Below are positions 2,404 through 12,529 of a stretch of DNA of 12,529 nt, one piece after another. Position 1 is the first letter of the stretch. Every line of letters begins with the position of its first letter. Position numbers and translations under genes: made by a program. This stretch comes from a virus. The notes beneath the pieces were generated by a model, which did no database searches, was not told the origin of the DNA, and saw only the letters and a list, made by a program, of their open reading frames with translations. The stretch is taken from UHGV virus genome UHGV-1994978. One strand, written 5' to 3'.

Positions 2404-2853
2404 ATGGCAAGAAAAGAAGCAATTCATAATAATCAGAAAGTAAAGGGAGCATTAAAAAATATAACATTACATGCCCTTTCCAAAGAAGCAAAAGATGTAA
2501 TGAGAAATCTAATTCAAGAAAGTGATTTTTTAGGTAAAAACAGAGTACCAGAAGAAGACGTGTATGCCATTGTTCGTAATAGTCCAGAGTTAAGCGAACA
2601 GCTAACATTTGAATATCTAAAGCTATACAGACAAACAAAAGGTATGAACTACCCGGATAGTAAATCAGCACGTGAGAAGTACAAGAGGATCGCTACGCTC
2701 ATTTCACAGGCATTCGAGCAACTACTGAACGATGGTGTACCCCTCAACATGATTGCAAAGTATAAGTCTAAGCAGTTGATGACAGACGAACAGAAAGCCG
2801 CACATCTAGAGATGTTGACCTGCTCCCCGTTGATTAGTACACCCCGATGTTAG
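2404..2853 (+). pseudogene. phage gene interrupted by IS insertion (N-terminal part; native frame ends at the IS junction 2815/2816, the last 12 codons are read from the IS inverted repeat)
   Basis: ORF with AGGGG upstream of ATG 2404; reading frame runs straight into the IS left inverted repeat. Confidence 0.5.
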
Positions 2854-2858
2854 TAATG
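2816..2858. repeat. IS left terminal inverted repeat
   Basis: TGACCTGCTCCCCGTTGATTAG...GTTAGTAA aligns with the reverse complement of the right end. Confidence 0.7.
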
Positions 2859-2886
2859 TCTTCATAAGCCACATGAGGACATCCCC

Positions 2887-3150
2887 ATGAAGAAGCGTTT
2901 TTCCGACGAACAGATCATCAGTATTCTCCGCGAAGCCGAAGCTGGGGTACCCGCCCGTGAACTCTGCCGCAAGCATGCCATTTCCGATGCCACGTTTTAC
3001 ACCTGGCGTAAGAAGTATGGCGGTATGGAGGTGCCTGAAGTTAAGCGCCTGAAGTCGCTTGAGGAAGAGAACACCAGACTCAAGAAGCTGCTTGCCGAAG
3101 CCATGCTGGATAAAGAGGCGCTTCAGGTGGCTCTTGGGCGAAAGTACTGA
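2887..3150 (+). CDS. IS3-family transposase OrfA (helix-turn-helix and leucine-zipper part)
   Basis: [46 protein letters not shown]... is the typical IS3/IS407-group OrfA pattern. Confidence 0.9.
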
Positions 3151-3173
3151 CGACAGACCAGAAGCGGGAAGCC

Positions 3174-4218
<1,045 letters not shown>

Positions 4219-4612: not shown

Positions 4613-4620
<8 letters not shown>
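4219..4620 (+). CDS. putative tail assembly protein with NlpC/P60-like domain (lambda gpK C-terminal-like)
   Basis: GDNDCNIIVLRII has the NlpC/P60-type catalytic Cys context and His residues follow (ESHDGFELHP); directly upstream of and overlapping the J-like gene; weak similarity judged by eye. Confidence 0.45.
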
Positions 4621-7820
<3,200 letters not shown>

Positions 7821-7822
<2 letters not shown>

Positions 7823-8862: not shown

Positions 8863-9129
8863 ATGGACATTGGTACAATCTTAGCTCTTATTATTTCTGG
8901 TTGTGTACTTCTGTACACTGTATTCCGCGACAATACAAAAGATACTGATGGACTACTTACACGTGTTTCAGAACTGGAAACTAAACAAGCAGTACAGGAA
9001 AGTAGTATGGTGCGTATTGAAGCTGATCAGAATAAGATGCGTGATGCTTTAACTAAACTTGAAAACCAGATTCATGATCTGGATGTGAAAATTGAAAAAA
9101 TCATTACCATTCTTGAACAGAAACAATAA
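8863..9129 (+). CDS. small membrane-anchored protein with C-terminal coiled coil (88 aa)
   Basis: N-terminal hydrophobic segment ILALIISGCVLLYTVF followed by a heptad-like helical region; function not assignable from sequence. Confidence 0.55.
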   Translation: MDIGTILALIISGCVLLYTVFRDNTKDTDGLLTRVSELETKQAVQESSMVRIEADQNKMRDALTKLENQIHDLDVKIEKIITILEQKQ

Positions 9130-9135
9130 GAAGAA

Positions 9136-9167
9136 AGGCGATAGTACATAATGCTATCGCCTTTTTG
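9136..9167. terminator. bidirectional rho-independent terminator between convergent genes
   Basis: AGGCGATAG / CTATCGCCT stem flanked by an A-tract upstream and TTTTT downstream. Confidence 0.6.
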
Positions 9168-9617
9168 TTATTTGTTGGTTAGTACGGCAATCATTGCATC
9201 AACACGATTAGGTGTTTGTTTATACCATAATGAATCTTTAGCCTGTCTGATGGCTTCCGGGTAATCTTTTGTTTTAAGGGCTACTAACATCTTTTTGAAT
9301 TTCTGTACCCCGCCTAAACCTAACTGGAACATCATTATCACAAGAAAATCTTTCCAGTCGTCAGGTAGCCAGATGTTGAGCGTTTCAACATTATGTACTG
9401 CAATTAGTATATCCTGGTCCAGTAGTCTATCTGCTTGCTCAATAGTAATACCATCTGGATACTTGTCACCAACATGTAGTAAATGACCGTAGCCAATGGT
9501 TTCAAATCCTAGTGAATCTTTGTATGTCCAAAATTTGTTATCGTGAAAGTACTTCAATTTTGTTTGATAAGCGATAGTACCTTCATATTCTTTTAATCTG
9601 TCTTTTAGTTTACTCAT
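9168..9617 (-). CDS. T4-type lysozyme (glycoside hydrolase family 24), putative endolysin
   Basis: YKDSLGFETIGYGHLL aligns with T4 lysozyme YKDTEGYYTIGIGHLL; MMFQLGLGGVQKF and WYKQTPNR match T4 MVFQMGETGVAGF and WYNQTPNR; Glu/Asp/Thr catalytic positions appear conserved. Confidence 0.85.
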   Translation of the reverse strand: MSKLKDRLKEYEGTIAYQTKLKYFHDNKFWTYKDSLGFETIGYGHLLHVGDKYPDGITIEQADRLLDQDILIAVHNVETLNIWLPDDWKDFLVIMMFQLGLGGVQKFKKMLVALKTKDYPEAIRQAKDSLWYKQTPNRVDAMIAVLTNK

Positions 9618-9657: not shown

Positions 9658-9681
9658 GTGAGAGTTAATAAAGCATGGGAG

Positions 9682-10107
9682 ATGTTCGATACTGATATGT
9701 GGGATATGTCAGAAGTAACAGATGGGAACTACGTTTCGTTTATCTACATTATTCAGTTTCCAGAGACTGGCGAGTACTATTTCGGTAAGAAGCAAATCTA
9801 TAAAAAAGTACGCGACATAAAGAATTTAAAGGCTACTTCAATTGAATCGAACTGGCCTGATTATACCGGTAGTAGTAAGTGCGTTAATGAAATGATTGAT
9901 GCCGGAATGCCATACACTAAAAAGATTTTGTACTGTGTTAAATCTGACGCAGAGGCAACGATTTTAGAAACAGCATTGATTAGCTACATTGGTTTACATC
10001 CCGACTGCTTAAATAAAGCAATTATGTGTAAAGCACGATTGCCAAAGAATCGTTTAGATTTATTTAAAGTACTGCAAGATCTAATTGATATGTTGGGTGT
10101 GAGGTAA
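9682..10107 (+). CDS. hypothetical protein, possibly a small GIY-YIG-like nuclease domain; track start 9658 (GTG) is the alternative
   Basis: GGGAG four nt before ATG 9682; SFIYIIQFPETGEYYFGKK loosely fits GIY...YIG spacing, with later Arg and Glu (ILETAL) candidates; weak assignment. Confidence 0.5.
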   Translation: MFDTDMWDMSEVTDGNYVSFIYIIQFPETGEYYFGKKQIYKKVRDIKNLKATSIESNWPDYTGSSKCVNEMIDAGMPYTKKILYCVKSDAEATILETALISYIGLHPDCLNKAIMCKARLPKNRLDLFKVLQDLIDMLGVR

Positions 10108-10111
10108 ATAC

Positions 10112-10672
10112 ATGACAAGAATAACGGGTATAGATAATGTCACGAACTATATAAAAACAACAGGAACGAAGTTAGGTAAACAGTTCCAAGATGAAATTAT
10201 TAAGCGTTCAAGAGTATTATCTATGAAAGTACAGGCAGATATGAACAATGCCGTAGACAAAGGTGCAGTACCTTTCACTCAACGATCAATTCTATTCTTT
10301 TATAAAAAACGGGGTAGTGGGGTTACAGCTACAATCATGGTCAAAGATGTTCAGGCACAGTACTTATATGGTGTACTGGTTGAACAAAAGGCCATTGATA
10401 AATTTGTGCCTACTTCAAAAGCCCGCTTAACAAAGCAGGGTAATATTAGTGGACTAAAGAAGAATTTATCAAGTGGACGATACAAGATTGTCAAAGGTAA
10501 AAACGGAAAAGAACGATTAATAGATACTACTCAAAAGAAAAAACAAAAGCGTGTAATCGGTCTACGGGAACGTAAACGCCGTAAAATAATTTATGATTTC
10601 TATCAGGAAGTGAATGATGGTGTGATGTTAGTAATGAGTGGTATACAGGGAACATTCAAGGTAACAAGATGA
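10112..10672 (+). CDS. hypothetical protein with strongly basic C-terminal region (186 aa)
   Basis: ORF starts 5 nt after the previous stop; KKKQKRVIGLRERKRRK basic cluster; no family recognised. Confidence 0.6.
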   Translation: MTRITGIDNVTNYIKTTGTKLGKQFQDEIIKRSRVLSMKVQADMNNAVDKGAVPFTQRSILFFYKKRGSGVTATIMVKDVQAQYLYGVLVEQKAIDKFVPTSKARLTKQGNISGLKKNLSSGRYKIVKGKNGKERLIDTTQKKKQKRVIGLRERKRRKIIYDFYQEVNDGVMLVMSGIQGTFKVTR

Positions 10673-10980
10673 ATTTTGATGAACATTATGGTGAACTAAC
10701 CAGTGAGATTAAACTCGATGGTAATACACCAGAGGCTAATAGTATGCCAATTCATAAATGCTTTCTTGGTAATAAGTTCAAGAAGGTACTAAAGAGTAAA
10801 CAGATTAATATCGAACATTTTATGAATGTTTGCTATGAGAAAAAACAAGATATAACGGACGGTTCAGTACTCACATGGTCACTACAAGGTGTCCAGATGG
10901 ATGTGTATGTAATCGAACACAAAAAACTATTCGTTAAGGGAAAACACTTTTGGGTGTATTGCGTGGGGATCATTGAATGA
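10669..10980 (+). CDS. hypothetical protein (103 aa)
   Basis: ATGA start/stop overlap with the upstream gene suggests translational coupling. Confidence 0.55.
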   Translation: MNFDEHYGELTSEIKLDGNTPEANSMPIHKCFLGNKFKKVLKSKQINIEHFMNVCYEKKQDITDGSVLTWSLQGVQMDVYVIEHKKLFVKGKHFWVYCVGIIE

Positions 10981-11270
10981 TTGGTGTAATAATTGATTTA
11001 ATTAAAACTGGAATGGACTTTTTCATCAAGAAGAAAACTGTAGAACAGGAAGTTCAAAAAAATAATGCTGAAGGGCAGATAGAAACGAACAAAGAAGAGA
11101 TTGAAAAGGTGACATTCCATTGGCGTAATGCTCTAGGATGTGTGCTCACCTTAATCATTCTATATAACTGGATCATAGTACCAGTACTTGATGCTTTTGG
11201 TATTGTGGTTATCCAAGTGCCGTTAGGTCAACTACTGCAAGTACTATTGATTATGGTTGGTGGAAGCTGA
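10977..11270 (+). CDS. hypothetical membrane protein with two C-terminal transmembrane segments (97 aa)
   Basis: ATGA overlap with the upstream gene; hydrophobic stretches LGCVLTLIILYNWIIVPVL and GIVVIQVPLGQLLQVLLIMVGG; strong terminator follows. Confidence 0.55.
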   Translation: MIGVIIDLIKTGMDFFIKKKTVEQEVQKNNAEGQIETNKEEIEKVTFHWRNALGCVLTLIILYNWIIVPVLDAFGIVVIQVPLGQLLQVLLIMVGGS

Positions 11271-11272
11271 GT

Positions 11273-11298
11273 AAGCCCCTTAAGGGGCTTTTCTTTTA
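11273..11298. terminator. rho-independent terminator between convergent transcription units
   Basis: AAGCCCCT / AGGGGCTT palindrome then TTCTTTTATT, directly after stop of 10977..11270. Confidence 0.7.
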
Positions 11299-11499
11299 TT
11301 CCCAAAAAATATTAGGTTCTCTACGTGGTTCATTTACTTCTGTTCTTTTAACCCTGGCTACTACTTCATTGGTTTTTTTGTCTACAATATCATATGTAAT
11401 TTCTTCAATTGAATCCTGAAAACCACTTTCTTTACGGTGTACATGATTCAATTCATAATCTTTTGTTGGATATTTTTTGTAGAATTCTGATTCAGTCAT
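11296..11499 (-). CDS. hypothetical protein (67 aa from ATG 11499; track extends to 11511)
   Basis: GGAGA five nt upstream of ATG 11499 on the minus strand; charged, no recognisable motif. Confidence 0.5.
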   Translation of the reverse strand: MTESEFYKKYPTKDYELNHVHRKESGFQDSIEEITYDIVDKKTNEVVARVKRTEVNEPRREPNIFWE

Positions 11500-11524
11500 G
11501 ACTATCTCCACTTATTATATATTA

Positions 11525-12529
<1,005 letters not shown>

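What the first reader, a model, noticed from the sequence alone, without database searches (positions are those of the whole stretch)
9682..11270. Tightly coupled four-gene cassette of unknown function next to the lysozyme gene
Four co-directional genes with overlapping or abutting start/stop codons end at a strong terminator: a possible GIY-YIG-like protein, a protein with an extremely basic C-terminus, a 103-aa protein and a two-transmembrane-segment protein. None has a secure assignment, and the compact operon structure suggests they act together.
Basis: inference. Interest (0 to 1): 0.45.

Follow-up and report, generated by a model that had tools for sequence, protein, structure and literature searches.

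The report
Prophage late genes: nuclease, tail-completion, holin
The four tightly packed genes are real and almost always travel together, but they are the ordinary tail end of a defective enterobacterial prophage's late operon (a small nuclease, a tail-completion protein with a small partner, and the holin for the neighbouring lysozyme), not a single new system.

Summary
Observation confirmed. Four co-directional ORFs (9658-10107, 10112-10672, 10669-10980, 10977-11270) are separated by 4 nt or share ATGA overlaps. They end at a hairpin plus U-run terminator and lie divergent from a T4-type lysozyme gene (9168-9617, minus strand). Gene 1 starts at GTG 9658, not ATG 9682.

The "one cassette acting together" reading is only partly supported. 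In 85 related loci plus the window the genes co-occur almost always: g1 84, g2 86, g3 85, g4 79 of 86. The order varies, however. In about 10 loci g2-g3 sit upstream of the lysozyme and g1 overlaps g4 directly.

- g1 is a stand-alone GIY-YIG (SegE-type) nuclease domain with conserved core residues.
- g3 is an orphan beta-barrel protein that co-varies with g2.
- g4 is a GTA_holin_3TM-type holin serving a lysozyme that has no signal sequence.

The window's prophage is defective (IS insertion, broken tail-tip gene). Overall this is an unannotated but conventional mix of phage morphogenesis and lysis genes, of modest interest.

The parts
8863..9129 (+). p88: an 88-aa protein with an N-terminal transmembrane helix and a coiled coil. 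It is a conserved neighbour of the lysozyme gene and a candidate lysis accessory (holin partner, antiholin or spanin-like), role unproven.
   Evidence: Hydrophobic residues 1-23. A homologue is present in 85 of 86 sources, almost always next to the lysozyme gene. Only weak Pfam hints: DUF2730 at 2.9e-4 and XhlA at 1.1e-4 in homologues.
9132..9166 (.). Hairpin between the convergent p88 and lysozyme genes. It looks like a terminator on the + strand.
   Evidence: 15-bp stem followed by T-rich sequence; inverted repeat I1.
9168..9617 (-). T4-lysozyme-type endolysin (149 aa) with no signal or SAR segment.
   Evidence: PF00959 E 2.7e-10 and phrog_13211 E 6e-38. No hydrophobic window (maximum KD19 0.89). 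Present in 86 of 86 sources. On the minus strand in about 70 of the 86, and on the same strand as g1-g4 in 15 loci plus the phage DCP80 segment.
9658..10107 (+). g1: a stand-alone GIY-YIG (SegE-type) nuclease domain protein, 149 aa, with a GTG start.
   Evidence: PF19835 E 3.3e-15, 56.8 bits against a cutoff of 25. phrog_7363 homing endonuclease E 4e-9. Conserved F28-I/V-Y30, Y41-x-G43, K45, Y69-x-x-S72-S73, E104 and N119 in 39-77 homologues. Present in 84 of 86 sources.
10112..10672 (+). g2: a lambda gpZ-like tail completion protein (186 aa, net charge +26), encoded outside the neck module.
10669..10980 (+). g3: an orphan 103-aa beta-barrel protein that partners g2.
10977..11270 (+). g4: a holin of the GTA_holin_3TM type, 97 aa, with an N-terminal amphipathic helix, a charged linker and two transmembrane segments.
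   Evidence: PF11351 E 1.6e-4 (22.6 bits, just below the cutoff of 24.8) and phrog_3427 holin E 6e-5. 19 of 35 homologues hit PF11351, and no other family hits more than one homologue. Hydrophobic stretch at residues 50-96.
11273..11298 (+). Intrinsic terminator closing the g1-g4 unit.
   Evidence: 7-bp stem (5 GC), 4-nt loop and T-run. -18.5 kcal/mol, z = -2.7.

Best explanation
The region is the distal end of the late (virion assembly plus lysis) gene block of a defective, lambda-like siphovirus prophage of Enterobacterales. It is a translationally coupled string of functionally different late genes, not one machine.

- g2 is the phage's only gpZ-type tail completion protein. Inferred role: one or a few copies sit inside the top of the finished tail, contacting the tape-measure N-termini and the DNA end through the basic patch. 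[quoted passage not shown]
- g3 is a lineage-specific small beta-barrel protein that works with g2, either as a second minor neck/tail component or as an assembly partner. This is inferred from linkage and co-variation only.
- g4 is the holin that lets the signal-less T4-type lysozyme, encoded divergently next door, reach the cell wall. p88 upstream is probably an accessory of this lysis step.
- g1 is a small stand-alone GIY-YIG nuclease that is inherited with the lysis genes. Its target (host DNA, competing phage DNA, or a homing site) is unknown.

Shown: the gene structure, the family and fold assignments, co-occurrence, modular rearrangement and purifying selection. Inferred: the biochemical activities and the g2-g3 partnership.
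For: Gene structure and terminator.

Context: the cassette follows DUF6950 and J-like tail-tip genes. It lies near the right end of prophages inserted next to mipA in E. coli.

Map of a relative: lambda-A-like TerL, W-like protein, portal, protease-capsid fusion, FII-like protein (PF05354 E 2.5e-5), a gp17-like 153-aa protein (weak), tail fibre, major tail protein, chaperones, tape measure, distal tail protein, J, then g2-g3, p88, lysozyme, g1, g4.

g2 as tail completion protein:
- 5 of 54 distant relatives match Pfam Minor_tail_Z, best E 2.4e-7.
- hhalign E 4e-23 against the distant set, whose profile aligns colinearly with lambda Z at both ends.
- g2 scores 73.6 bits against that profile.
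- There is exactly one Z-like gene per locus, always after J and never between head and tail-tube genes, in 26 loci.

g4 as holin. The PF11351 family includes the ICP1 holin TeaA. The lysozyme lacks any hydrophobic segment.

g1: PF19835 above threshold, with conserved motif residues.

Modularity:
- Three gene orders occur.
- g2-g3 co-vary at rho 0.63, all other pairs at 0.18-0.49.
- The g4 allele was swapped in an otherwise near-identical background.
- dN/dS is 0.05-0.36.
- No defence-system hits.
Against: - g2 itself has no direct Pfam or PDB sequence hit, and hhalign against the single lambda Z sequence is insignificant. The gpZ link is transitive plus structural.
- A tail completion gene sitting behind the tail-tip gene and among lysis genes is atypical. 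In lambda, HK97, SPP1 and 80alpha it lies between the head-closure and terminator genes.
- g3 has no informative homologue, and its best fold matches are PilZ domains, not phage proteins.
- The window's g4 scores just below Pfam's gathering threshold.
- No spanin was found, so the lysis set looks incomplete.
- A terminator-like hairpin (9132-9166) and the inverted lysozyme gene separate g1-g4 from the upstream tail genes, and no convincing promoter was found. How the unit is transcribed is unknown.
- No protein function was tested.
Confidence: 0.72

Rival explanations
1. The four genes, with the lysozyme, form a self-contained accessory module kept by the host. It could be an abortive-infection or defence system, or a domesticated lysis/DNA-release system built from a nuclease, a basic DNA-binding protein, a small adaptor and a membrane pore.
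For: - The cassette is intact and under purifying selection in three decayed E. coli-type prophages that have lost or broken most structural genes: the window, AREA_C483 and 14EC007.
- It has its own terminator.
- A nuclease plus a small membrane protein is a common defence architecture.
- The family has no cultured phage representative in 50,697 phage records apart from a fragment in the phage DCP80 record.
Against: - No PADLOC match beyond a generic homing-endonuclease model for g1 (E 0.001).
- The same genes sit in apparently complete 28-40 kb phage contigs, in line with the tail genes.
- g2 is homologous to a virion tail completion protein and is the only such gene in those genomes.
- The gene order is not fixed, and alleles are exchanged independently.
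- Three decayed prophages are too few to show preferential retention, and dN/dS between recently diverged copies mostly reflects history before decay.
Confidence: 0.08
2. g1 is a selfish homing endonuclease that happens to sit in this intergenic slot, so the 'cassette' is three phage genes plus a parasite.
For: - The best family matches are Seg-type and homing endonucleases.
- g1 co-varies least with its neighbours (rho 0.18-0.36).
- It is absent from L019 and L025.
- The phage DCP80 segment carries an unrelated EndoVII/His-Me type nuclease ahead of the g4-like, g2-like and g3-like genes. This looks like a recurrent landing site for mobile nucleases.
Against: - g1 is present at the same position in 84 of 86 sources across 34-76% protein identity. 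Homing endonuclease genes are usually sporadic.
- It lacks the C-terminal DNA-binding domain that gives Seg and I-TevI enzymes their site specificity, because the protein ends about 30 residues after the catalytic core.
- It is translationally coupled to g2, or to g4 in the alternative gene order.
- dN/dS is 0.08-0.23.
Confidence: 0.15
3. g2 and g3 are lysis proteins rather than virion proteins. For example, the highly basic g2 could act as an outer-membrane disruptor that replaces the missing spanins.
For: - No spanin pair was found, and the lipoprotein gene at 11525-11773 occurs in only 11 of 86 sources.
- g2 has net charge +26 and lies between lysis genes in most loci.
Against: - g2 has a confident globular fold matching a tail completion protein, and profile links to gpZ.
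- It has no hydrophobic or amphipathic membrane segment and no signal sequence.
- In about 10 loci g2-g3 directly follow the tail-tip gene, upstream of all lysis genes.
- Lambda gpZ also carries a basic run (sequence printed).
Confidence: 0.05

Closest known systems
Phage lambda gpZ, and the tail completion proteins 80alpha gp51, HK97 gp10 and SPP1 gp16.1
   Same: - Similar length (186 aa against 192 aa for gpZ).
- A long N-terminal helix, a beta region and a C-terminal helix.
- An internal basic run.
- Transitive profile homology to PF06763.
- A single copy per genome.
   Different: - No direct Pfam hit.
- The conserved motifs are shared with an unannotated sister group rather than with lambda Z itself: D-x-G-x-V-P-F-T, V-K-x-x-Q-A-x-Y-L and Q-G-N-I.
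- The gene lies after the tail-tip gene, in the lysis region, instead of between the FII-like and U-like genes.
GTA_holin_3TM holins (PF11351; RcGTA holin, ICP1 TeaA)
   Same: - A small protein with an N-terminal amphipathic segment, a charged linker and C-terminal hydrophobic helices.
- Encoded close to an endolysin that lacks an export signal.
- More than half of the homologues hit the Pfam model.
   Different: - The window protein scores 22.6 bits, below the 24.8 cutoff.
- Only two clear transmembrane segments.
- Separated from the lysozyme gene by three other genes in this arrangement.
T4 Seg-type GIY-YIG endonucleases (Pfam SegE_GIY-YIG). By size and architecture it also resembles stand-alone GIY-YIG nucleases such as T4 endonuclease II; that comparison is from memory and was not tested.
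   Same: GIY and YIG motifs, and conserved Glu and Asn in the catalytic core. The Pfam score is well above threshold.
   Different: - No C-terminal DNA-binding domain.
- Fixed rather than sporadic distribution.
- No detectable sequence match to any solved GIY-YIG structure.
Lambda late operon organisation (A-W-B-C-E-FII-Z-U-V-G-T-H-M-L-K-I-J, with the lysis genes elsewhere)
   Same: Relatives have a lambda-A-like terminase, a W-like gene between terminase and portal, an FII-like head closure gene and a J-like tip protein with DUF6950 upstream.
   Different: - The Z-like gene has moved behind J.
- A large tail fibre gene lies between the neck genes and the major tail gene.
- The lysis genes are appended directly to the tail module.
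- The lysozyme gene is inverted in most members.

Membership tests
GIY-YIG nucleases, SegE_GIY-YIG (PF19835) - g1 | Profile score above the curated threshold. | tested here: met
   56.8 bits against a cutoff of 25, E 3.3e-15, residues 19-107. Homologues in L003 and L004 carry the same Pfam hit.
GIY-YIG nucleases, SegE_GIY-YIG (PF19835) - g1 | GIY and YIG motifs, plus the conserved catalytic Glu and structural Asn. | tested here: met
   F28-I/V-Y30, Y41-x-G43, E104 and N119 are invariant or at least 90% conserved in 39-77 homologues. The equivalence to I-TevI E75 and N90 is by motif order, which is inference.
GIY-YIG nucleases, SegE_GIY-YIG (PF19835) - g1 | Conserved catalytic Arg after the YIG motif. 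| tested here: inconclusive
   Basic residues cluster at positions 49-52, and K45 is invariant. Position 52 is Lys in most homologues and Arg in the window. No structure was available to assign the equivalent residue.
Seg-type homing endonucleases - g1 | C-terminal DNA-binding domain and sporadic, mobile distribution. | tested here: not met
   The protein ends about 30 residues after the catalytic core. It is present at the same position in 84 of 86 sources.
Tail completion proteins (lambda gpZ, PF06763; HK97 gp10-like fold) - g2 | Direct sequence-profile match to the family. | tested here: not met
   No Pfam family for g2 or for any of 32 homologues. hhalign against the single lambda Z sequence gives E 0.1.
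Tail completion proteins (lambda gpZ, PF06763; HK97 gp10-like fold) - g2 | Homology through intermediate sequences. | tested here: met
   The g2 profile retrieves 98 representatives from 1.84 billion proteins. 5 of 54 distant ones match PF06763, best E 2.4e-7. hhalign gives 99.5%, E 4e-23, against the 42 most distant. Their profile scores g2 at 73.6 bits and lambda Z at 16 bits, colinear at both ends.
Tail completion proteins (lambda gpZ, PF06763; HK97 gp10-like fold) - g2 | Fold: a long bent N-terminal helix, a beta hairpin or domain, and a C-terminal helix. | tested here: met
Tail completion proteins (lambda gpZ, PF06763; HK97 gp10-like fold) - g2 | Gene located between the head-closure and tail-terminator genes. 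| tested here: not met
   In relatives the FII-like and gp17-like genes are adjacent, with no Z-like gene between head and tail-tube genes. The Z-like gene follows J.
Tail completion proteins (lambda gpZ, PF06763; HK97 gp10-like fold) - g2 | Presence inside the virion tail, and a requirement for infectivity. | not testable with these tools
   Needs virion proteomics, cryo-EM and a knockout.
Holins, GTA_holin_3TM (PF11351) - g4 | Profile score above the curated threshold. | tested here: inconclusive
   The window protein scores 22.6 bits against a cutoff of 24.8, E 1.6e-4. 19 of 35 homologues have E <= 0.01, best 1.6e-5, and no other family hits more than one homologue. phrog_3427 holin E 6.4e-5.
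Holins, GTA_holin_3TM (PF11351) - g4 | A small membrane protein with transmembrane helices, encoded with an endolysin that has no export signal. | tested here: met
   97 aa, with a hydrophobic stretch at 50-96 split by a conserved P69/G75 turn. The lysozyme has no hydrophobic window. g4 is linked to the lysozyme gene in 79 of 86 sources.
Holins, GTA_holin_3TM (PF11351) - g4 | Timed membrane hole formation that releases the endolysin. | not testable with these tools
   Needs expression and lysis assays.
PilZ c-di-GMP receptors - g3 | RxxxR and D/NxSxxG binding motifs on the split barrel. | tested here: not met
Known anti-phage defence systems - whole cassette | A match of the components to curated defence models. 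| tested here: not met
   PADLOC gives only a generic homing-endonuclease model for g1 (E 0.001) and nothing for g2-g4.

The most novel reading that the evidence does not exclude
The small nuclease is a functional, selected component of this lysis module rather than a passenger. A stand-alone nuclease (GIY-YIG here, an unrelated EndoVII-type enzyme in the phage DCP80 segment) is translationally coupled to the holin. It could act at the end of infection, for example by destroying host or competitor DNA, or by processing DNA at lysis. The lysozyme-nuclease-holin set could then be what decayed prophages retain.

A weaker companion idea is that g3 is a new kind of tail-completion partner protein.
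Probability: 0.12. Interest if true: 0.55.

Novelty: new member of a known kind. Interest (0 to 1): 0.3.

Why it matters
- It turns four 'hypothetical proteins', annotated that way in well over a hundred Enterobacterales prophages, into testable assignments: a nuclease, a tail completion protein and its partner, and a holin.
- It documents a lambda-like phage lineage, with no cultured representative in the phage collection searched, in which the gpZ-type gene has left the neck module.
- It provides a diverged gpZ subfamily with a confident model, at a time when the location and role of tail completion proteins are only starting to be resolved structurally.
- It does not reveal a new kind of system.

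Tried and rejected
- DNA searches against phage records found nothing near-identical. In distant mode only short lysozyme matches appeared.
- tblastn of g2 against 50,697 phage records found only the odd phage DCP80 record.
- NCBIfam gave nothing for g1-g4, and PADLOC gave nothing useful.
- PDB sequence searches with the g2 and g1 profiles gave nothing.
- Direct hhalign of g2 against lambda Z, and of g3 against lambda U and FII, was insignificant. jackhmmer from lambda Z into the collected proteins found nothing.
- The Foldseek search of g3 against viral models had no hit below E 7e-3, so g3 could not be assigned. The PilZ reading was rejected because the binding motifs are absent.
- An invertible-switch explanation for the lysozyme orientation was checked and dropped, because no inverted repeats flank the gene.
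- The promoter scan was no better than shuffled sequence.
- A search of E. coli genomes with a more distant relative found nothing.
- Rfam found only the IS frameshift element, and there are no tRNAs.
Full report
**1. What is in the sequence**

The window carries four + strand ORFs:
- g1: 9658-10107 (149 aa)
- g2: 10112-10672 (186 aa)
- g3: 10669-10980 (103 aa)
- g4: 10977-11270 (97 aa)

g1 and g2 are separated by 4 nt, with a GTGAGG ribosome-binding site. g2/g3 and g3/g4 each share ATGA overlaps. Two bases after the g4 stop codon lies a 7-bp GC-rich hairpin followed by a T-run. It folds at -18.5 kcal/mol, z = -2.7.

Divergent from g1, across only 40 nt, is a 149-aa phage lysozyme gene on the minus strand (9168-9617; PF00959 E 2.7e-10).
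- g1 starts at GTG 9658, not ATG 9682. The upstream Trp7 is conserved in at least 90% of homologues, and AGGGA lies 8 nt before the GTG.
- The basic part of g2 is residues 101-160, not the extreme C-terminus.

**2. Where it sits**

The window is part of a defective prophage.
- An IS3-family element lies at 2816-4036. It is 100% identical to copies in E. coli-grown phage records, and its IS1222-type frameshift element is at 3117-3234.
- The IS abuts tail genes: DUF6950 and a J-like tip protein.
- The J-like gene is broken into 4613/4662-6392 and 6650-7822, whereas relatives have a single ORF of 1067-1270 aa.

Two complete E. coli genomes carry decayed relatives of the same element between yeaG and mipA. 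In both, the lysozyme and the four genes are intact near the right end, followed by a methyltransferase and a DUF2188 gene.

No deposited phage genome is similar at the DNA level. tblastn of g2 hits only a segment of the record 'Escherichia phage DCP80'.

**3. Co-occurrence and gene order**

A g2 profile recovered 80 loci from IMG/VR. Other loci came from assemblies and genomes. Iterated HMM searches over all ORFs of 85 loci plus the window found:

| Gene | Sources out of 86 |
|---|---|
| lysozyme | 86 |
| g2 | 86 |
| g3 | 85 |
| p88 (upstream 88-aa TM + coiled-coil gene) | 85 |
| g1 | 84 |
| g4 | 79 |

Several of the g4 absences are at contig ends.

Three gene orders exist:
- About 60 sources, including the window: p88+, lysozyme-, g1, g2, g3, g4.
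- 15 loci: the same order, but with the lysozyme co-directional and 3 nt from g1.
- About 10 loci: g2, g3, p88, lysozyme-, g1, g4, with g1 and g4 overlapping by 4 nt.

In addition, g1 is essentially deleted in L019 and L025.

Pairwise identities across 68 complete loci correlate well only for g2 and g3 (rho 0.63). All other pairs give 0.18-0.49.

Between the window and E. coli AREA_C483, g1-g3 and the lysozyme gene are nearly identical (dS 0.07-0.13). g4 is only about 52% identical and instead resembles the allele in L003.

So the genes travel together, as members of one late region, but they are separable modules. The only tight pair is g2-g3. dN/dS is 0.05-0.36 for all genes.

**4. What each gene is**

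*g1.* It matches Pfam SegE_GIY-YIG well above threshold. The GIY and YIG motifs, an invariant Glu104 and an invariant Asn119 are conserved. It has no DNA-binding extension and no match to solved structures by sequence.

Sequence evidence points the same way.
- The g2 profile, searched against 1.84 billion representatives, found 98 proteins.
- Of 54 distant full-length ones, five match Pfam Minor_tail_Z, best E 2.4e-7.
- hhalign of g2 against the 42 most distant gives 99.5% probability, E 4e-23.
- The profile of those 42 aligns colinearly with both ends of lambda Z and scores the window's g2 at 73.6 bits.

*g4.* It matches GTA_holin_3TM just below threshold, and also a PHROG holin family. 19 of 35 homologues hit PF11351, and no other family hits more than one homologue. 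It has a 47-residue hydrophobic C-terminal half, whereas the lysozyme has none. PF11351 includes the ICP1 holin TeaA.

**5. Genome logic**

In a related 40-kb contig the order is:
1. lambda-A-like terminase
2. a W-like gene
3. portal
4. protease-capsid fusion
5. an FII-like 93-aa gene (PF05354 E 2.5e-5)
6. a 153-aa gene with a weak gp17 (terminator) hit
7. a 1274-aa tail fibre
8. major tail protein
9. two chaperone-sized genes
10. tape measure
11. distal tail protein
12. J
13. g2, g3, p88, lysozyme, g1, g4

In 26 loci that span terminase to J there is exactly one Z-like gene. It is always behind J and never in the neck region. This lineage has therefore moved its tail completion gene out of the FII-Z-U position to the end of the tail module, where the lysis genes are appended. 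In most members g2-g3 ended up between g1 and g4.

**6. Mechanism and confidence**

The best explanation (about 0.7) is a conventional late gene string.
- g2 is the tail completion protein, with g3 as a lineage-specific partner.
- g4 is the holin for a cytoplasmic T4-type lysozyme, with p88 as a probable accessory.
- g1 is a small GIY-YIG nuclease of unknown target.

The family, fold, linkage and selection results are shown. The activities are inferred.

Open points:
- No spanin was found.
- No promoter was identified, and a hairpin plus the inverted lysozyme gene lie between the tail genes and g1.
- g3's role rests on linkage alone.

Rivals:
- A host-retained defence or lysis module (0.08). 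There are no PADLOC hits, and the genes sit in line in complete phage contigs.
- g1 as a selfish homing endonuclease (0.15). The family matches, the weak co-variation and an EndoVII-type nuclease in the same slot in the phage DCP80 segment favour it. The near-universal fixed position and the lack of a DNA-binding domain argue against it.
- g2/g3 as lysis factors (0.05). The fold and the alternative gene order contradict it.

**7. Novelty**

This is a new, unannotated member set of known kinds. The displaced gpZ-type gene with an orphan partner, and a fixed stand-alone GIY-YIG gene coupled to the holin, are mildly unusual. Nothing indicates a new type of system. Interest 0.3.

Noticed in passing
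window 2816-4036: An IS3-family insertion sequence with orfA/orfB at 2887-3150 and 3174-4007, and an IS1222-type frameshift element at 3117-3234. It is 100% identical to copies found in phage records grown on E. coli K-12 and C. Its CDS span is the same as that of the ISSen4-family element in E. coli AREA_C483. It cuts ORF 2404-2853 and joins non-structural genes directly to tail genes, so most of the prophage's structural region is missing.
   Followed up: partly
window 4702-4723 and 4613-7822: A 22-base run of N lies inside the start of the J-like tail-tip gene. Its length is not a multiple of three, so it creates an apparent frameshift. Separately, the gene is truly interrupted between 6392 and 6650, whereas relatives have one ORF of 1067-1270 aa. 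It is therefore a pseudogene in a defective prophage.
   Followed up: partly
window 8863-9129 and 9132-9166: An 88-aa protein with an N-terminal transmembrane helix and a coiled coil is conserved next to the lysozyme gene in 85 of 86 sources. It has only weak DUF2730 and XhlA hints. It is a better candidate for a lysis partner of the lysozyme than g1-g3, but its role (holin partner, antiholin or spanin-like) is unresolved. A 15-bp hairpin separates it from the convergent lysozyme gene.
   Followed up: partly
window 9168-9617, compared with loci such as L047, L050, L053-55, L058, L063, L064 and L079-82: The lysozyme gene is inverted relative to its neighbours in about 70 of 86 sources, but it is co-directional and 3 nt from g1 in 15. 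No flanking inverted repeats were found, so this is a fixed rearrangement, not a switch. How the inverted copy is transcribed from a 40-nt gap is unexplained.
   Followed up: partly
window 10977-11270 against L002 14069-14359: The holin allele differs sharply (about 52% amino-acid identity, dN 0.42) between two elements whose g1-g3 and lysozyme genes are near-identical (dS 0.07-0.13). The recombination breakpoint lies at the g3/g4 junction.
   Followed up: yes
window 11296-11511 (-) and 11525-11773 (-): Two small minus-strand genes lie between the holin terminator and the methyltransferase gene. One is a 71-aa protein. The other is an 82-aa lipoprotein (lipobox LTGC, phrog_7757 E 1.4e-44, two further Cys residues). 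They occur in only 11-12 of 86 sources, so they are variable cargo, possibly a superinfection-exclusion type lipoprotein.
   Followed up: no
window 11819-12529: A 236-aa methyltransferase gene conserved at the prophage right end in several relatives. It is followed by a DUF2188 gene and then mipA in E. coli. It has a weak PADLOC 'mad2' match (E 1.2e-10).
   Followed up: no
L001 (PQ671644.1 Escherichia phage DCP80, record positions about 14.4-25.5 kb): A record classified as a T4-like Gaprivervirus (141 kb) contains a siphovirus-type segment. In order it carries a tape-measure-sized gene, a J-like gene, a TM plus coiled-coil gene, an EndoVII-type nuclease, a 57-aa g4-like protein, g2-like and g3-like genes, and a lysozyme gene. 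This is either a chimeric assembly or an unusual acquisition. The nuclease slot is filled by an unrelated nuclease family.
   Followed up: partly
L087 6106-9930 and related loci: In relatives, a 1274-aa tail fibre gene lies between the neck genes (FII-like and gp17-like) and the major tail protein gene. This is an unusual position for a fibre gene in a lambda-like layout.
   Followed up: no
family level: This prophage lineage is widespread in Escherichia, Enterobacter, Klebsiella, Citrobacter, Kosakonia, Cedecea, Pantoea, Serratia, Cronobacter and Raoultella. It yields many 28-40 kb IMG/VR contigs. Apart from the DCP80 fragment, it has no representative among 50,697 deposited phage genomes.
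   Followed up: partly
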